This document shows positions 1 through 5,229 of a stretch of DNA of 5,438 bases, piece after piece. The DNA lies in the IMG/VR virus record IMGVR_UViG_2778261417_000007; one strand, written 5' to 3'. The notes beneath the pieces were generated by a model. That model made no database searches. It was given only the letters and a program-made list of their open reading frames with translations, and had not been told where the DNA came from. Origin of the DNA: a virus (Duplodnaviria > Heunggongvirae > Uroviricota > Caudoviricetes). Both the position numbers and the translations under genes were made by a program. Every line of letters begins with the position of its first letter. Position 1 is the stretch's first letter.

Positions 1-438
1 AACTGATGGAGATGGAAGCCACGGGAGCACCTCAAAAACACCATCATACACTAAATCAGTAAGTTGGCACCATTACCCAAAATCTCTTACTTGAGAAACG
101 GCCTATTTGAGATTTCAGTCGTGGCAGGATGATCAGTTGATTCGAGTATTGACGCATTTACGTTCTGAACGGCTGTAATAAAGTTGCGGGAGAGAAATGC
201 CGCTAGTATTTTGTAATTAATTGAATGCCGACGGTTTAATGAGAAGTCAAGAACACTACTTGTACTATAATCGTTCGATGTTAGTGAGGGTTTGATGCAA
301 AAAATGAAGTGATTGACCCTAAATTTGCGCGATCAGCGACAGATTGTACACCGAGATCCTGTGGGCTGGAATTTGCAGAGAAATACCGAAAATGATATCC
401 AATATTGTTTTCAGTTCCTACATCATACCTGATAAGGG

Positions 439-444
439 TATAAT
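439..444 (+). promoter_or_regulatory. Candidate sigma70 -10 hexamer (TATAAT) upstream of the cargo operon
   Basis: Perfect TATAAT 34 nt upstream of the ATG at 478. No convincing -35 at 16-18 bp spacing (TTCCTA at best) and no clear Shine-Dalgarno before the ATG. Weak, sequence-only call. Confidence 0.2.
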
Positions 445-477
445 CATAAAAATTAGGATAATTCAAGTTATAATTGT

Positions 478-894
478 ATGAATAAAAACGACCTTGAAGC
501 ATTATCTGACACTAGGCTTAATGAGGCCAAATGCTTGCTTGATCATGGCTTTTTTCATGGTGCATATTATCTTTGTGGGTATGCAGTTGAATGTGCATTG
601 AAGGCCTGTATTGCCAAGTCATTTTTACAACATGAGTTTCCAAACAAAAAAGTCGTAAATGATTCATATACTCATGATTTGTCGCAACTTCTCAAAATTG
701 CCAACTTACATCAAATTTTGATTGCTGACGCAAAAAATGATGTTTCGTTGGAGATTAACTGGTCGGTCGTTAAAGACTGGAGCGAGCAATTTAGATACGA
801 CAATAACATAAGTAAAGCTATGGCCGAACAATTGTTTGATGCTGTAGGTGACCAAAATTCTGGAGTTTTGAAATGGGTAAAAGCACACTGGTAA
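478..894 (+). CDS. Hypothetical protein with HEPN-like helical signature (138 aa); first gene of two-gene cargo cassette
   Basis: Intact 138-codon ORF in an AT-rich block. N-terminal segment LNEAKCLLDHGFFHGAYYLCGYAVECALKACIAKS and later SYTHDLSQLLKIA resemble the conserved helices of HEPN-fold proteins (pattern recognition, not a search). Canonical R-x(4-6)-H motif not found. Its stop overlaps the next ORF by 22 nt. Confidence 0.6.
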   Translation: MNKNDLEALSDTRLNEAKCLLDHGFFHGAYYLCGYAVECALKACIAKSFLQHEFPNKKVVNDSYTHDLSQLLKIANLHQILIADAKNDVSLEINWSVVKDWSEQFRYDNNISKAMAEQLFDAVGDQNSGVLKWVKAHW

Positions 895-1274
895 TCGGCA
901 GAGAGTTGACAAAAGATATGGAATTCTCAGGTCAATTTTTATTAAAAAAACTCAAGTTACAGAATTTAACCATTGATGCTGCAATGTGGTTTTATTACCC
1001 AGATCTATCTTGGAGATATATTTTAGTTATCAGTGACTTCTCAGAACGTGGACCGGCAGAAATATATAGAAAAATCAGTGAGATAAATAGAAACAGCATA
1101 TCAAAAAAGTATAAGCCGATACCATTAGAAGCAATTGAGGCTAAGGGGGATTCAGCTTTTATTTATAAAATGTTAAAAGGATTTGCTAGAGTCAACGATG
1201 GTAAAGTTCGCGTTTCTAATTCTATGGTAAATGGTTTAGAAATCGTTGACTGTCTGATCTATGAGTTAAAATAA
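873..1274 (+). CDS. Hypothetical protein (133 aa); second, translationally coupled gene of the cargo cassette
   Basis: ATG at 873 preceded by GGAG (862-865) at 7 nt spacing. Overlaps the upstream ORF by 22 nt in a different frame. No motif I can recognise (no NTase G[SG]...DxD, no obvious HTH). Same AT-rich composition as 478-894. Confidence 0.55.
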   Translation: MGKSTLVIGRELTKDMEFSGQFLLKKLKLQNLTIDAAMWFYYPDLSWRYILVISDFSERGPAEIYRKISEINRNSISKKYKPIPLEAIEAKGDSAFIYKMLKGFARVNDGKVRVSNSMVNGLEIVDCLIYELK

Positions 1275-1345
1275 GAAATCTCTTGCTGGGTATCATTATT
1301 GTTTAAATGACTTTTGATTTTCAATAATCAACTTGTCATAATTAA

Positions 1346-1374
1346 GTCACCGGAGTTTGAACTCCTCCGGTGAC
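1346..1374. other. Perfect stem-loop (10 bp stem GTCACCGGAG / CTCCGGTGAC, 9 nt loop) at the boundary between AT-rich cargo and the nin module
   Basis: Inverted repeat read directly from the sequence. No T-tract follows on the plus strand (TTCTGCGC); on the minus strand it is followed by TTAATTAT. Could be a boundary/processing hairpin or a weak terminator. Confidence 0.4.
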
Positions 1375-1397
1375 TTCTGCGCTAAACGGGGACGTTT

Positions 1398-1499
1398 ATG
1401 CGCACATACAATCCAAACTCTCTTCTCCCTTCACAGATGCAGAAATGCACCTGCGATATCTTGCATCCAGCGTTTGATCTCTGCGGAGGTGAAGCGTGA
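1398..1499 (+). CDS. ylcH: Small 33-codon ORF ([33 protein letters not shown]), YlcH-like position immediately upstream of ybcN
   Basis: ATG at 1398 with GGGGA 5 nt upstream. Stop TGA 1497-1499 overlaps the GTG start of the next gene (GTGA). Length and position match my recollection of the 33-aa ylcH of DLP12; sequence identity not verified. Confidence 0.4.
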
Positions 1500-1951
1500 A
1501 CTTCCCACAAGATGGCATCAAACTGCATCGCGGTAACTTCACCGCTATCGGTCGGCAGATCCAGCCTTATCTGGAGGACGGCAAATGCTTTCGCATGGTG
1601 CTTAAACCGTGGCGCGAGAGACGCAGTCTTTCCCAGAATGCACTCAGCCACATGTGGTACAGCGAAATCAGTGAATACCTCATCAGCAAGGGTAAAACGT
1701 TCGCTACTCCAGCTTGGGTAAAAGATGCTCTCAAACACACATATCTCGGTTATGAAACCAAAGACCTGGTTGATGTCGTAACCGGTGATATCACCACTAT
1801 CCAGTCGTTACGCCATACCTCCGATCTTGATACCGGAGAGATGTATGTCTTCCTGTGTAAGGTTGAAGCCTGGGCGATGAATATTGGTTGCCACCTGACT
1901 ATTCCACAGAGCTGCGAGTTTCAGCTGCTGCGCGACAAGCAGGAGGCGTAA
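1496..1951 (+). CDS. ybcN: NinB-family recombination protein (YbcN-like, 151 aa), GTG start
   Basis: GTG start with GGAGG (1482-1486) 9 nt upstream. Contains the RSLSQN-type motif characteristic of NinB (lambda NinB has RSLDQN). Size and position match ybcN in DLP12 gene order. Confidence 0.85.
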
Positions 1952-2900: not shown

Positions 2901-2985
2901 AGTCAGAGATAACAATCAACTAATACTGTTTTGTTGATTTTTGCTTGTAATTGGCGTTCTGGTCTGATTTTTGTGGAGTAAGTTG

Positions 2986-3369
2986 ATGCGTGATATTCAG
3001 ATGGTTCTTGAGCGTTGGGGAGCGTGGGCGGCTAATAATCATGAAGATGTGACCTGGTCGTCCATTGCCGCCGGTTTTAAGGGATTAATTACTTCAAAAG
3101 TAAAATCTCGCCCGCAATGTTGTGACGATGACGCGATGATTATTTGCGGGTGCATGGCCCGTCTGAAAAAGAACAACAGCGATTTGCACGATTTATTAGT
3201 AGATTATTATGTAGTCGGTATGACATTCATGTCACTGGCAGGTAAGCATTGCTGCTCTGATGGTTATATCGGGAAAAGGTTACAGAAGGCTGAGGGCATA
3301 ATTGAAGGGATGTTAATGGCATTAGATATCCGGTTAGAGATGGATATCGTTGTTAATAACTCTAATTAA
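2986..3369 (+). CDS. quuD: Late-gene antiterminator Q (QuuD-like, 127 aa)
   Basis: ATG at 2986 with GGAG (2975-2978) 7 nt upstream; the track ORF from 2971 is a TTG-initiated extension. Protein [24 protein letters not shown]... with Cys clusters (CCDDD...CGC, HCC), consistent with a zinc-binding lambdoid Q. Sits between the nin module and the lysis region, as Q genes do. Confidence 0.85.
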
Positions 3370-3486: not shown

Positions 3487-3548
3487 AAGTGGCTTGAGGG
3501 AGCCACTTATATGTTGGGGAGGCAAAGCCTCCCGCAACATATCTTTTT
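3487..3548 (+). terminator. Tandem hairpins ending in a plus-strand intrinsic terminator (candidate tR'-like / quuD terminator)
   Basis: Hairpin 1: AAGTGGCT / AGCCACTT (3487-3508, 8 bp stem). Hairpin 2: 15 bp stem with one bulged G (3509-3523 pairing 3527-3542, loop AAA), followed by C then TTTTT (3544-3548). No T-tract on the minus strand after these hairpins. Confidence 0.6.
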
Positions 3549-3558
3549 CGTAATCAGA

Positions 3559-4641
3559 TTAGAACTGGTAAACCAGACCTACAGCAACGATATCATCGGT
3601 AGCAACGCCAGATGCTTTCGTGAAATCGCTCTTATCAATCAGGTTGATTTTGTAATCAACAAAAGTGGACATATTTTTGTTGAAGTAATAGGTTGCACCT
3701 ACATCAATATATTCAACCAGGTCCTGATCACCCCACGCACCCAAGTCTTTTCCTTTAGATTGCAGGTAAGCAACGGACGGACGCAGACCGAAGTCGAACT
3801 GATATTGTGCAACTACTTCGAAGTTTTGTGCTTTGTTGGCAATATGGTTATTACCAAAAACAGTCATGTTCTGGGTTTCAGAATAGGTGGTAGCCAGATA
3901 GATGTTGTTCGCATCATATTTCAGACCAGCTGCCCATACTTCAGCATTTTGACCAGATGCATTCAGGCTGTTGTTACCGTAGATAACCTGATTATTAGTG
4001 CGGTCAGATTTAGCATAGGTTGCACCTACACCGAATCCTTCATACTCATAAGTAGTGGAGAAACCGAAACCATCACCATTAGCTTCAGTTACGTCAGTGC
4101 GGTCATTTTTACCCTGATACTGAGCAGCAAAGTTCAGACCATCAACCAGACCAAAGAAGTCGTTGTTACGATAAGTTGCAACACCAGTGGTGCGACCAGT
4201 CATGAACACATCTGTTTGGGTCCAGGTATCGCCACCGAATTCTGGCAGAACGTCAGTCCACGCACCGATGTCATATGCTACACCGTAGTTACGGCCGTAA
4301 TCGATTGAGCCGTAGTCCCCGAATTTCAGGCCTGCAAATGCAAGACGGGTTTTGTCTTTGGAGGAGCCTTGAGATTCAGCGCGGTTGCCTTTGAATTCAT
4401 ATTCCCACTGACCGAAACCAGTCAGTTGATCGTTGATTTGGGTTTCACCTTTGAAGCCAAGACGGGCATAAGTAGTATCACCATCATCTGCATCATTAGA
4501 GGAGAAGTAGTGCTTGGCATTAACTTTCCCATATAGATCCAGCTTGTTACTGTCTTTATTATAAATTTCAGCTGCCTGAGCAGACATCGCCATCAGTACT
4601 GATGCAGCTACAGCAGAAATTGCCACTGTTAATTTTTTCAT
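3559..4641 (-). CDS. nmpC: General diffusion porin of the OmpC/OmpF/PhoE/NmpC family (NmpC/Lc-like prophage porin, 360 aa precursor)
   Basis: Signal peptide [23 protein letters not shown] then mature start [16 protein letters not shown]. Multiple aromatic-rich beta-strand motifs and a C-terminal ...VGLVYQF with terminal Phe, typical of 16-strand enterobacterial porins. Located between Q and the holin on the opposite strand, as nmpC in DLP12 and lc in phage PA-2 (recollection). Confidence 0.93.
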
Positions 4642-5229
4642 CGTGAGCCCTTTTTTTTGAACTATTATTAAAAAATGATGTCACTGCGCGATAAATATTC
4701 ATCTAATCAATGTGATTATTTCAAGATGTAAGTTTTAGTTTCTCATTTAATTTGTGAAGTAGATCTCTATTTTTATCTGAACTTTTTCTATCGAAACCTA
4801 TTTATGGCTCTTATTTGAACAAAAATAAACCTATTAGCTAATTTATATTAATGGTTGTTATTTATGGAGGTTCTATAATTCGGCAGTTTAATTTAAATCA
4901 ACTAAAAATAACGTCTGAAATTATTTATTGGTTATTTGTTGAGGTTTTCTTATGTATTTGTGGTGGTGTTTTGAACACTCGGTAGCATTCTCATAAATAT
5001 CATTCAGTGGTTTACGTACGTAAAAAATTGGTTATGCTGTTAAGAGTGGTTACTTCGTCACACAGCTTAAACCCGCCGTCGAGCTGGTTTTTCCATTTTT
5101 TGAGTCTCGATATTAGCTGATAACTCAATACCTGAGTTATTCACTGACTCCGAGTCTGTTACGTTTCTGCTTTTTTGCGATACGTTGTATTCCCTCAATT
5201 TACACCCGCTTTGTCTGCGAGGTGGGGTT
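4642..5229. promoter_or_regulatory. AT-rich divergent intergenic region: expected porin promoter (minus strand) and holin upstream signals
   Basis: About 590 bp without a convincing ORF between the divergently oriented porin and holin genes. Plus-strand candidate promoter -35 TTGAAC (4971-4976), 17 bp spacer, -10 TAAATA (4994-4999). Holin RBS GAGGTGGGG at 5219-5227. Exact promoters not resolved. Confidence 0.35.

What the first reader, a model, noticed from the sequence alone, without database searches (positions are those of the whole stretch)
478..894. HEPN-like protein lacks the canonical R-x(4-6)-H catalytic motif
The sequence has HEPN-like helices (..AKCLLDHGFFHGAYYLCGYAVECALKACI.., ..YTHDLSQLL.., ..RYDNN..). 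I could not find an Arg 4-6 residues before any His. The His in THDL is preceded by Lys rather than Arg (KKVVNDSYTH). Either this is a non-canonical active site, a ligand-binding or non-catalytic HEPN, or my fold assignment is wrong. Each possibility changes the mechanistic expectation (RNase toxin versus sensor/regulator).
Basis: inference. Interest (0 to 1): 0.55.

Follow-up and report, generated by a model that had tools for sequence, protein, structure and literature searches.

The report
Prophage HEPN gene pair, non-canonical site
The gene encodes a genuine HEPN-fold protein of the classical PF05168 family, where loss of the textbook Arg-x4-6-His RNase motif is already documented; it is always paired with a small uncharacterised partner gene, forming a likely toxin-antitoxin or phage-defence cassette in an E. 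coli prophage.

Summary
The 138-aa product of 478-894 has two Arg (R13, R106) and no R-x(4-6)-H. None is conserved among about 200 homologues.

The fold call is also right:
- Pfam HEPN PF05168 scores above its curated cut-off.
- The AlphaFold2 model has pLDDT 95.
- Its best PDB matches are almost all HEPN proteins.

The missing His is not an anomaly. It is a published trait of this family ("HEPN-T"; "Class II HEPN/MNT").

In 194 relatives, K42, H66 and Y107 never vary; E38 and R106 each depart in one sequence. These residues align with the conserved E-x3-K, H and R-Y of solved HEPN-T proteins. This matches the alternative His/Arg active site proposed in 2013, which as far as I could find is untested.

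New here: the gene overlaps a 133-aa partner (873-1274) by 22 nt. The pairing is kept in 88 of 89 loci across many phyla. The partner has no Pfam family and no nucleotidyltransferase motif, and only weak MNT-like fold similarity.

The cassette is low-GC cargo in the ren-ybcN slot of a DLP12-like prophage.

Best reading: a toxin-first TA/abortive-infection-like module. Activity was not tested. Interest is modest.

The parts
478..894 (+). HEPN-T (PF05168-type) gene, 138 aa; the predicted toxin/effector
   Evidence: ORF. Pfam HEPN 27.8 bits, above the cut-off of 22. PADLOC PDC-M28A 1.8e-7. phrog_5737. AF2 pLDDT 95.3. HEPN structures top the Foldseek list.
589..603 (+). Codons E38 (589-591) to K42 (601-603) on helix 2: the E-x3-K motif
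   Evidence: E38 is present in 193/194 sequences (the other has a gap) and K42 in 194/194. They align to AxExAxK of 1ufb/1wol/1o3u by hhalign and MAFFT.
673..675 (+). Codon H66 (THDL): invariant His upstream of the motif position; candidate alternative catalytic His
   Evidence: 194/194 His. Aligns with the conserved His of 1ufb, 1wol and 4nqf in three MAFFT modes. Matches the 'second conserved H' of HEPN-T described in PMC3710099.
793..798 (+). Codons R106-Y107 (FRYD): the retained Arg of the Rx4-6H position plus the family's conserved Tyr. The His position (R+5) is I111, or deleted in relatives.
   Evidence: R106 in 193/194, Y107 in 194/194; position 111 is I, V or a gap. Aligns to R-Y of RYPD in four solved HEPN-T proteins.
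873..1274 (+). Partner gene, 133 aa; an alpha/beta protein of an unnamed family; the predicted neutraliser/regulator
873..894 (+). 22-nt overlap of the two reading frames (ATGGGTAAAAGCACACTGGTAA); implies translational coupling
   Evidence: Read directly from the sequence. The same 22-nt overlap occurs in 71 of 88 pairs across phyla and on plasmid pAJ4131.
14..1311 (.). Low-GC cargo segment carrying the cassette. It sits between the upstream cargo gene and the phage-82-like orf33/ybcN backbone.
   Evidence: GC is 0.31-0.41 here against about 0.50 in the nin genes. Homology to lambdoid phages resumes at about 1312. K-12 DLP12 carries emrE-ybcK-ybcL-ybcM in the same slot. The left edge was not mapped.

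Best explanation
This is a self-contained two-gene cassette. It is carried as cargo in the ren-ybcN slot of a DLP12-like lambdoid prophage. Gene 1 encodes a classical-family (HEPN-T, PF05168) HEPN domain. It has lost the His of the Rx4-6H motif, as many members of that family have. It keeps the motif's Arg (R106). It also has an invariant His (H66) at the start of helix 3, plus E38, K42 and Y107. I infer that these form the alternative, metal-independent RNase site proposed for HEPN-T proteins, probably completed across a HEPN dimer, and that the protein is the toxic or effector component. Gene 2 is translationally coupled through a 22-nt overlap. It encodes a faster-evolving small alpha/beta protein, possibly a catalytically dead descendant of the MNT fold. 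I infer that it holds the HEPN in check by direct binding rather than by AMPylation. Release during stress or phage infection would then stop growth, giving plasmid/prophage addiction or abortive infection. Shown here: the fold, the family membership, the conservation pattern, the obligate gene pairing, and the mobile, sporadic context. Inferred only: RNase activity, toxicity, neutralisation and any anti-phage role.
For: HEPN membership: Pfam above its cut-off, and HEPN proteins dominate the fold hits. Invariant polar residues E38, K42, H66, R106 and Y107 coincide with the conserved residues of 1ufb, 1wol, 1o3u and 4nqf. PMC3710099 describes exactly this pattern (His of the motif absent, Arg kept, second conserved His N-terminal) and proposes an alternative active site. 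It also notes that HEPNs lacking the motif were toxic in a genome-scale screen. Pairing: 88/89 loci, 71 of them with the same 22-nt overlap. A fused ORF occurs in L085. Pairwise identities of the two proteins correlate (r = 0.71), with HEPN at 49.5% and the partner at 34.3%; a toxin more conserved than its antitoxin is typical. Autonomy: the flanking genes of about 60 loci fall into 164 Pfam families with at most 3 members each, mostly housekeeping. Mobile contexts: E. coli prophage, Acinetobacter prophage, one Klebsiella phage, and a 13.9-kb plasmid beside BrnT/BrnA modules, which are also toxin-first. The segment has low GC. The slot is a variable cargo site, comparable to where the HepS HEPN defence gene sits in Gifsy-1.
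Against: No activity data exist for this family. Yao 2020 knew of none for Class II PF05168 HEPNs in general. I could not read model coordinates, so the proximity of H66 and R106 is not verified here. hhalign supports only the first 43 columns against solved HEPN-T proteins (prob 21%). The register of H66 and R106 rests on MAFFT and motif matching and on the span of the Pfam hit. Foldseek E-values are weak (0.07 or worse). Immediate neighbours are rarely defence genes. The cassette is rare in sequenced phages (1 of 50,697) and plasmids (5 of 72,556). No convincing own promoter was found upstream.
Confidence: 0.5

Rival explanations
1. Non-catalytic HEPN. The protein binds RNA or a nucleotide without cleaving it. 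It acts either as a stoichiometric translation blocker or as a ligand sensor/adaptor, and the partner modulates that binding.
For: The canonical catalytic His is absent. PMC3710099 allows that motif-less HEPNs act by binding, with MtlR and human sacsin as examples. The E-x3-K, H and R-Y residues could equally well line a nucleotide pocket.
Against: The same paper predicts inactivity for HEPNs that lack conserved charged or polar residues. This family has five such residues that are invariant or nearly so, including a His/Arg pair. About 50% identity across phyla for the whole 138 aa suggests strong functional constraint.
Confidence: 0.25
2. Split nucleotidyltransferase or type VII-like module. 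The partner is a divergent MNT. Either it modifies the HEPN (for example AMPylation of Y107), or it forms a KNTase-like two-subunit transferase in which HEPN E38/K42 supply substrate-binding residues.
Against: None of 215 partners has a G[GS]-x(8-14)-[DE]-x-[DE] motif. No PF01909 or any other Pfam hit occurs in 69 members. hhalign against an MNT alignment gives prob 0.3%. An exhaustive profile search finds 3,200 cluster representatives and does not spill into the very large MNT superfamily. Foldseek finds nothing significant. Gene order is the reverse of HepT/MntA.
Confidence: 0.12
3. A conserved non-toxic housekeeping heterodimer (for example an RNA-processing or stress factor) that merely hitch-hikes on mobile elements. 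It would be neither a TA nor a defence module.
For: Many loci lie among housekeeping genes, for example inside a purine-biosynthesis operon in Chloroflexota. Few neighbours are defence genes.
Against: The cassette is present in only 190 of 5,426 complete E. coli genomes, always at 99% identity or more. Distribution across phyla is patchy, with variable neighbours. Insertion between genes of an operon is itself typical of selfish cassettes.
Confidence: 0.1

Closest known systems
HEPN-T / classical HEPN family (Pfam PF05168); solved examples TT1696 (1ufb), ST0689 (1wol), TM0613 (1o3u), AF0298 (2hsb)
   Same: Same fold and the same conserved residues: E-x3-K on helix 2, His before helix 3, and R-Y at the motif position. 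The His of Rx4-6H is commonly missing in both.
   Different: The window's family carries an extra roughly 40-residue helical insert between the His and the Arg. It has an invariant Cys (C39) and a near-invariant Cys (C44) in ECALKAC, and a C-terminal W-rich helix. A profile of the family finds no PDB sequence. Its partner is not a recognisable MNT.
Class II HEPN/MNT modules (PF05168 + PF01909), as defined by Yao et al. 2020
   Same: Two-gene module with a PF05168 HEPN that lacks RX4HXY but keeps a conserved Tyr. Not characterised biochemically, according to that paper.
   Different: Class II partners keep GSX10DXD and match PF01909; this partner does neither. Here the HEPN gene comes first. 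Class II is reported mainly in archaea and thermophiles, whereas this family is broadly bacterial.
[quoted passage not shown]
   Same: A small HEPN protein plus a small alpha/beta partner in one operon. The MntA structures appear among the partner's weak fold matches.
   Different: HepT has RX4HXY and belongs to DUF86 (PF01934). MntA is an active adenylyltransferase encoded upstream of the toxin. None of these features holds here.
AbiV (Lactococcus HEPN RNase)
   Same: PMC3710099 names it alongside HEPN-T as a family where the canonical His is often absent. Its structures appear in the fold hits. It has an anti-phage role.
   Different: The characterised AbiV does have 91-RNHKSKH-97 and is inhibited by an RNA. 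It is a larger protein (201 aa) and shows no sequence-level relation to the window protein.
HepS (Gifsy-1 prophage solo HEPN defence protein)
   Same: A HEPN gene carried in the accessory-gene region downstream of the replication genes of a lambdoid prophage.
   Different: HepS has a canonical R100-H105 motif and works without a partner.
PADLOC candidate system PDC-M28
   Same: All 116 HEPN family members match the PDC-M28A model (best 7.5e-12; window protein 1.8e-7).
   Different: The scores are modest for a full-length model. No PADLOC model, including any second PDC-M28 component, matches the partner. I found no paper describing PDC-M28.

Membership tests
HEPN superfamily, HEPN-T / PF05168 | Match to the Pfam HEPN model above its curated gathering score | tested here: met
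   27.8 bits against a cut-off of 22; residues 12-118 match profile positions 10-102 of 117. Most homologues also carry PF05168.
HEPN superfamily, HEPN-T / PF05168 | All-alpha up-down helical bundle resembling solved HEPN domains | tested here: met
   AF2 pLDDT 95.3, all-helical. Six of the top 7 Foldseek PDB entries are HEPN proteins (TMq about 0.5, prob up to 1.0), although E-values are only 0.07-0.9.
HEPN superfamily, HEPN-T / PF05168 | Family-typical conserved residues: E-x3-K (helix 2), His before helix 3, and R-Y at the motif position | tested here: met
   E38, K42, H66, R106 and Y107 are invariant or nearly so. They are co-aligned with 1ufb, 1wol, 1o3u and 4nqf in three MAFFT modes. hhalign independently confirms only E38 and K42.
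Catalytic HEPN RNases (canonical) | R-x(4-6)-H motif at the start of the last core helix | tested here: not met
   Absent from the query and not conserved in 204 homologues. The R+5 position is I111 or a gap.
Catalytic HEPN RNases (canonical) | Metal-independent endoribonuclease activity at a dimer interface | not testable with these tools
Type VII HepT/MntA (Class I HEPN/MNT) | RX4HXY in the HEPN (PF01934 or PF08780) | tested here: not met
   No such motif. The Pfam hit is PF05168 only.
Type VII HepT/MntA and Class II HEPN/MNT | Adjacent PF01909 nucleotidyltransferase with GSX10DXD | tested here: not met
Class II HEPN/MNT | PF05168 HEPN without RX4H but with a conserved Tyr | tested here: met
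   (Y107 in 194/194). Definition taken from PMC7641770.
Toxin-antitoxin module (generic) | Two small co-directional, overlapping genes, sporadically distributed and found on mobile elements | tested here: met
   22-nt overlap in 71/88 pairs. Present in 190 of 5,426 E. coli genomes. Prophage, phage and small-plasmid contexts. Variable neighbours.
Toxin-antitoxin module (generic) | One product is toxic and the other neutralises it | not testable with these tools
   Requires expression experiments.
PADLOC PDC-M28 | Both components of the candidate system are present | tested here: inconclusive
   The A component matches. No PADLOC model matches the partner. The composition of PDC-M28 could not be looked up.

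The most novel reading that the evidence does not exclude
The cassette founds a large, unnamed bacterial toxin-antitoxin or abortive-infection family: at least 581 species genomes for the HEPN, and about 3,200 clusters at 50% identity for the partner. In it, a HEPN-T RNase uses a His(helix 3)/Arg active site instead of Rx4-6H. It is restrained by a catalytically dead, MNT-derived protein. That would be an evolutionary bridge from enzymatic (type VII, AMPylating) to purely stoichiometric neutralisation. It would also be the first handle on what motif-less Class II HEPNs do.
Probability: 0.25. Interest if true: 0.55.

Novelty: new variant of a known kind. Interest (0 to 1): 0.33.

Why it matters
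The flagged feature, a HEPN without Rx4-6H, is already documented for this family, so on its own it adds little. The context is more useful. PF05168-type ("Class II") HEPNs are abundant. In 2020 Yao et al. knew of no biochemical study of them, and I found none since. This cassette comes from E. coli, is only 0.8 kb long, and belongs to a very widespread family. It has a near-invariant five-residue candidate site and an obligate partner of unknown family. That makes it a convenient system for testing whether motif-less HEPNs cleave RNA through an alternative His/Arg site. It could also show how such proteins are controlled without an active nucleotidyltransferase.

Tried and rejected
- Direct sequence and profile searches of the HEPN against PDB sequences found no HEPN. 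I therefore retrieved real HEPN-T sequences with a consensus-like probe.
- hhalign of the family against solved HEPN-T proteins supports only helices 1-2. The register of H66 and R106 rests on MAFFT.
The Arg is retained as R106, and the Lys positions vary and have the wrong spacing.
- The partner as an active MNT was rejected: no motif, no Pfam hit, and hhalign prob 0.3%.
- The partner's C-terminal hairpin (RFSxNxxNGxxIEDAYIY) superficially resembles FGSxARGx5SDIDL. The match is not significant and the second carboxylate is missing.
- The exhaustive profile search with the partner did not reach any larger superfamily.
- A conserved third gene or defence-island association was not found.
- No Rfam family occurs in the window, and no terminator or convincing promoter lies around the cassette.
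- Literature searches for the protein accessions, for PDC-M28 and for inactive-MNT partners of HEPN found nothing relevant. A "HEPN-T" text hit in PMC13590631 turned out to be the phrase "HEPN-type".
Model coordinates cannot be read.

Full report
**Where the window comes from**

The 5.4-kb window is part of a DLP12-like lambdoid prophage of E. coli. Downstream of the finding lie the following genes:
- ybcN (1496-1951)
- ybcO (2075-2404)
- rusA (2401-2763)
- the Q-type antiterminator quuD (2971-3369)
- an intact ompC/nmpC-like porin on the minus strand (3559-4641)

An identical stretch occurs in E. coli EC21Z-014. There the order is O/P replication genes, ren, a "TagO"-annotated gene, then "HEPN domain-containing protein", "hypothetical protein", orf33/ylcH, ybcN, ninE, ybcO, rusA, ylcG, quuD and the porin.

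The full cassette is present in 190 of 5,426 complete E. coli genomes, always at 99% identity or more. Its GC content is 0.31-0.37, against about 0.50 for the nin genes. Homology to phage 82 and lambda-like phages resumes at about position 1312. In K-12 DLP12 the same slot between renD and ylcH-ybcN holds emrE, ylcJ, ybcK, ybcL and ybcM instead. The cassette is therefore exchangeable cargo in a known variable slot.

**Checking the observation**

- It has Arg only at 13 and 106, and His at 23, 27, 52, 66, 78 and 137. There is no R-x(4-6)-H.
- Among 204 homologues, 153 have no such string. In the rest it occurs at scattered positions, so it is chance.
- K57 and K58 lie 8 and 7 residues before H66 and vary across the family.

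**Is it a HEPN?**

Yes.
- Pfam HEPN (PF05168) scores 27.8 bits against a gathering score of 22, over residues 12-118.
- An AlphaFold2 model built on 116 homologues has mean pLDDT 95.3 and is all-helical.
- Foldseek against the PDB returns ST0689 (1wol), TT1696 (1ufb), TM0613 (1o3u), SsR10 (2q00), AF0298 (2hsb) and 4nqf. Csm6, AbiV and the sacsin HEPN follow. E-values are weak (0.07 or worse) but probabilities reach 1.0.
- Plain sequence and profile searches against PDB sequences found no HEPN protein. The family is a divergent branch.

**What is conserved**

In 116 relatives, and in an extended set of 194 distinct sequences:
- K42, P55, H66, W101, Y107 and G129 never vary.
- E38, Y31 and Y35 are missing only in one gapped sequence.
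- R106 is Arg in 193 of 194.
- C39 is conserved in 191 of 194.

I retrieved real HEPN-T sequences from the PDB and merged them with the family alignment. Three MAFFT modes gave the same register:
- E38 and K42 fall on the AxExAxK of helix 2.
- H66 falls on the conserved His of 1ufb, 1wol and 4nqf. 1o3u has Tyr at this position.
- R106-Y107 falls on the R-Y of "RYPD" in all four.

hhalign confirms only the first 43 columns, so the register of H66 and R106 is less secure than that of E38 and K42. TT1696 reads RYPDAH, a true Rx4H. At that position the window protein has I111, and many relatives have a deletion.

**What the literature already says**

Anantharaman et al. 2013 (PMC3710099) list HEPN-T (PF05168) as a family where the conserved His is often replaced and "a conserved H elsewhere … could contribute to activity". 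For the AF0298-type they describe exactly the pattern seen here: motif His absent, Arg present, and a second strongly conserved His N-terminal of the motif. They propose an alternative active site. They also note that motif-less HEPNs behaved as toxins in a genome-wide screen.

Yao et al. 2020 (PMC7641770) define "Class II HEPN/MNT" as PF05168 HEPNs without RX4HXY but with a conserved Tyr. They state that no biochemical study existed.

The absence of the motif is therefore a known, family-typical trait. The functional question it raises is a recognised one, and I found no later study that answers it.

**The partner gene**

ORF 873-1274 (133 aa) starts 22 nt before the HEPN stop codon.
- I collected 89 loci carrying a HEPN homologue, 80 of them from a scan in which at least 581 species genomes matched. 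They span Pseudomonadota, Acidobacteriota, Chloroflexota, Bacteroidota, Planctomycetota, Desulfobacterota and others. A homologous partner lies directly downstream in 88 of the 89, and in 71 with the same 22-nt overlap.
- The remaining locus (L085) has the two fused into one 274-aa ORF. It comes from a MAG, so this may be an indel error.
- Pairwise identities of the two proteins across 73 loci correlate (r = 0.71). The HEPN is the more conserved of the two in 98% of comparisons: 49.5% against 34.3% mean identity.
- The partner matches no Pfam, NCBIfam or PADLOC model, in one member or in 69.
- A word-indexed profile search found 1,673 cluster representatives. An exhaustive search found 3,200 at E of 0.001 or better and 1,480 at 1e-10 or better. 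Among the 150 listed, nearly all are about 125-135 aa and match the profile along their whole length.

**The partner's fold**

Its AF2 model has pLDDT 92.5 and the order alpha-beta-beta-alpha-beta-alpha-beta-beta.
- Foldseek gives nothing significant; MntA 7ae9 appears at rank 8.
- hhalign against an MNT alignment gives prob 0.3%.
- None of 215 partners has a G[GS]-x(8-14)-[DE]-x-[DE] motif.
- The conserved residues are L12, G20, L27, D28, W39, W47, L49, G60, Y65, R113, D126, Y130 and R131.

The partner may descend from the MNT fold. It is not an active nucleotidyltransferase by any sequence criterion.

**Genomic context elsewhere**

The genes flanking about 60 loci fall into 164 Pfam families, none with more than three members. 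Most are housekeeping genes. Only a handful hit defence models such as PtuA, AriA-like, WYL and mad3.

In a Chloroflexota MAG the pair sits between purM and purH. In Acinetobacter it lies in a prophage next to umuDC and an AbiH gene. On the 13.9-kb plasmid pAJ4131 it lies beside BrnT/BrnA modules.

It occurs in one of 50,697 phage records and five of 72,556 plasmids. A self-sufficient two-gene cassette dropped into unrelated neighbourhoods is typical of toxin-antitoxin modules.

**Interpretation**

The most likely reading (about 0.5) is a toxin-first TA or abortive-infection-like module. In this reading the HEPN-T protein is an RNase using H66 and R106, with E38, K42 and Y107 contributing. The translationally coupled partner neutralises it by binding. 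Everything about activity is inferred.

The rivals are:
- a non-catalytic RNA- or nucleotide-binding HEPN (about 0.25);
- a type VII-like or split-transferase arrangement in which the partner is a cryptic MNT (about 0.12), which the missing catalytic motif argues against;
- a non-toxic conserved heterodimer (about 0.1).

A wrong fold assignment is very unlikely.

**Comparison and novelty**

The protein passes the membership tests for HEPN-T/PF05168. It fails those for canonical Rx4-6H RNases and for type VII HepT/MntA. It meets the HEPN half of the Class II HEPN/MNT definition but not the MNT half. All family members match the PADLOC candidate PDC-M28A, though modestly, and the partner matches nothing there.

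I rate it a new variant of a known kind. The flagged feature is already explained. The obligate pairing with an unnamed, motif-less partner family and the reversed gene order were not described in anything I could find.

Interest is modest (0.33). Its main value is as a compact E. coli model for the still-untested motif-less HEPNs.

Noticed in passing
window 954-956 and 1263-1265 (partner residues K28 and E131): In the partner family these two positions are D28/R131 in 176 of 215 sequences. In the enterobacterial clade, including this window, they are K28/E131 (14 sequences). E/R, E/K and S/E intermediates also occur. This is a charge-swapped pair, suggesting a salt bridge between helix 1 and the last strand, and it supports the predicted fold.
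   Followed up: partly
L085:4953-5777 (+), Bryobacterales MAG: The HEPN and partner are read as one fused 274-aa ORF. This is either a natural fusion, which would be evidence of physical interaction, or an indel error within the 22-nt overlap of a long-read MAG.
   Followed up: no
window 592-594 and 607-609 (C39, C44): Two cysteines in helix 2 (ECALKAC) flank the E-x3-K motif. C39 is conserved in 191/194 sequences and C44 in 188/194. Solved HEPN-T proteins have Ala, Lys or Gly at these positions. Their role is unknown.
   Followed up: no
window 1344-1376: A perfect 12-bp inverted repeat, AAGTCACCGGAG(9)CTCCGGTGACTT, lies just upstream of orf33/ybcN. It corresponds to the 'possible regulator-binding site' annotated in phage 82 (X92588). 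It has no T-run, so it is not a typical intrinsic terminator.
   Followed up: partly
window 14-477: A 464-bp stretch without an annotated gene lies upstream of the HEPN start. It contains a perfect TATAAT at 439-444 but no acceptable -35 element, and no obvious Shine-Dalgarno sequence before the ATG at 478. There is no Rfam hit. The 73-aa antisense ORF at 281-502 is probably spurious.
   Followed up: partly
window 3559-4641 (-): An intact 360-aa OmpC/NmpC-type porin gene (Porin_1, E 1e-153). The orthologous nmpC of K-12 DLP12 is disrupted by IS5. The 265-aa plus-strand ORF at 3511-4308 lies antisense to it and is almost certainly not a gene.
   Followed up: partly
window 4650-5000: A very AT-rich stretch (GC 0.24-0.33) upstream of the porin gene. 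Only short ORFs lie there.
   Followed up: no
window 1496-1951 (+): YbcN (annotated as a DNA base-flipping protein) matches Pfam NinB just below its gathering score (21.0 against 23.8 bits). This suggests it is the divergent NinB counterpart of this prophage type.
   Followed up: no
L007:2951-6332 (Chloroflexota MAG); also L008, L009 and L023: The HEPN-partner cassette is inserted between purM and purH of a purine-biosynthesis gene cluster, on the same strand. This is an odd place for a presumed toxin module.
   Followed up: no
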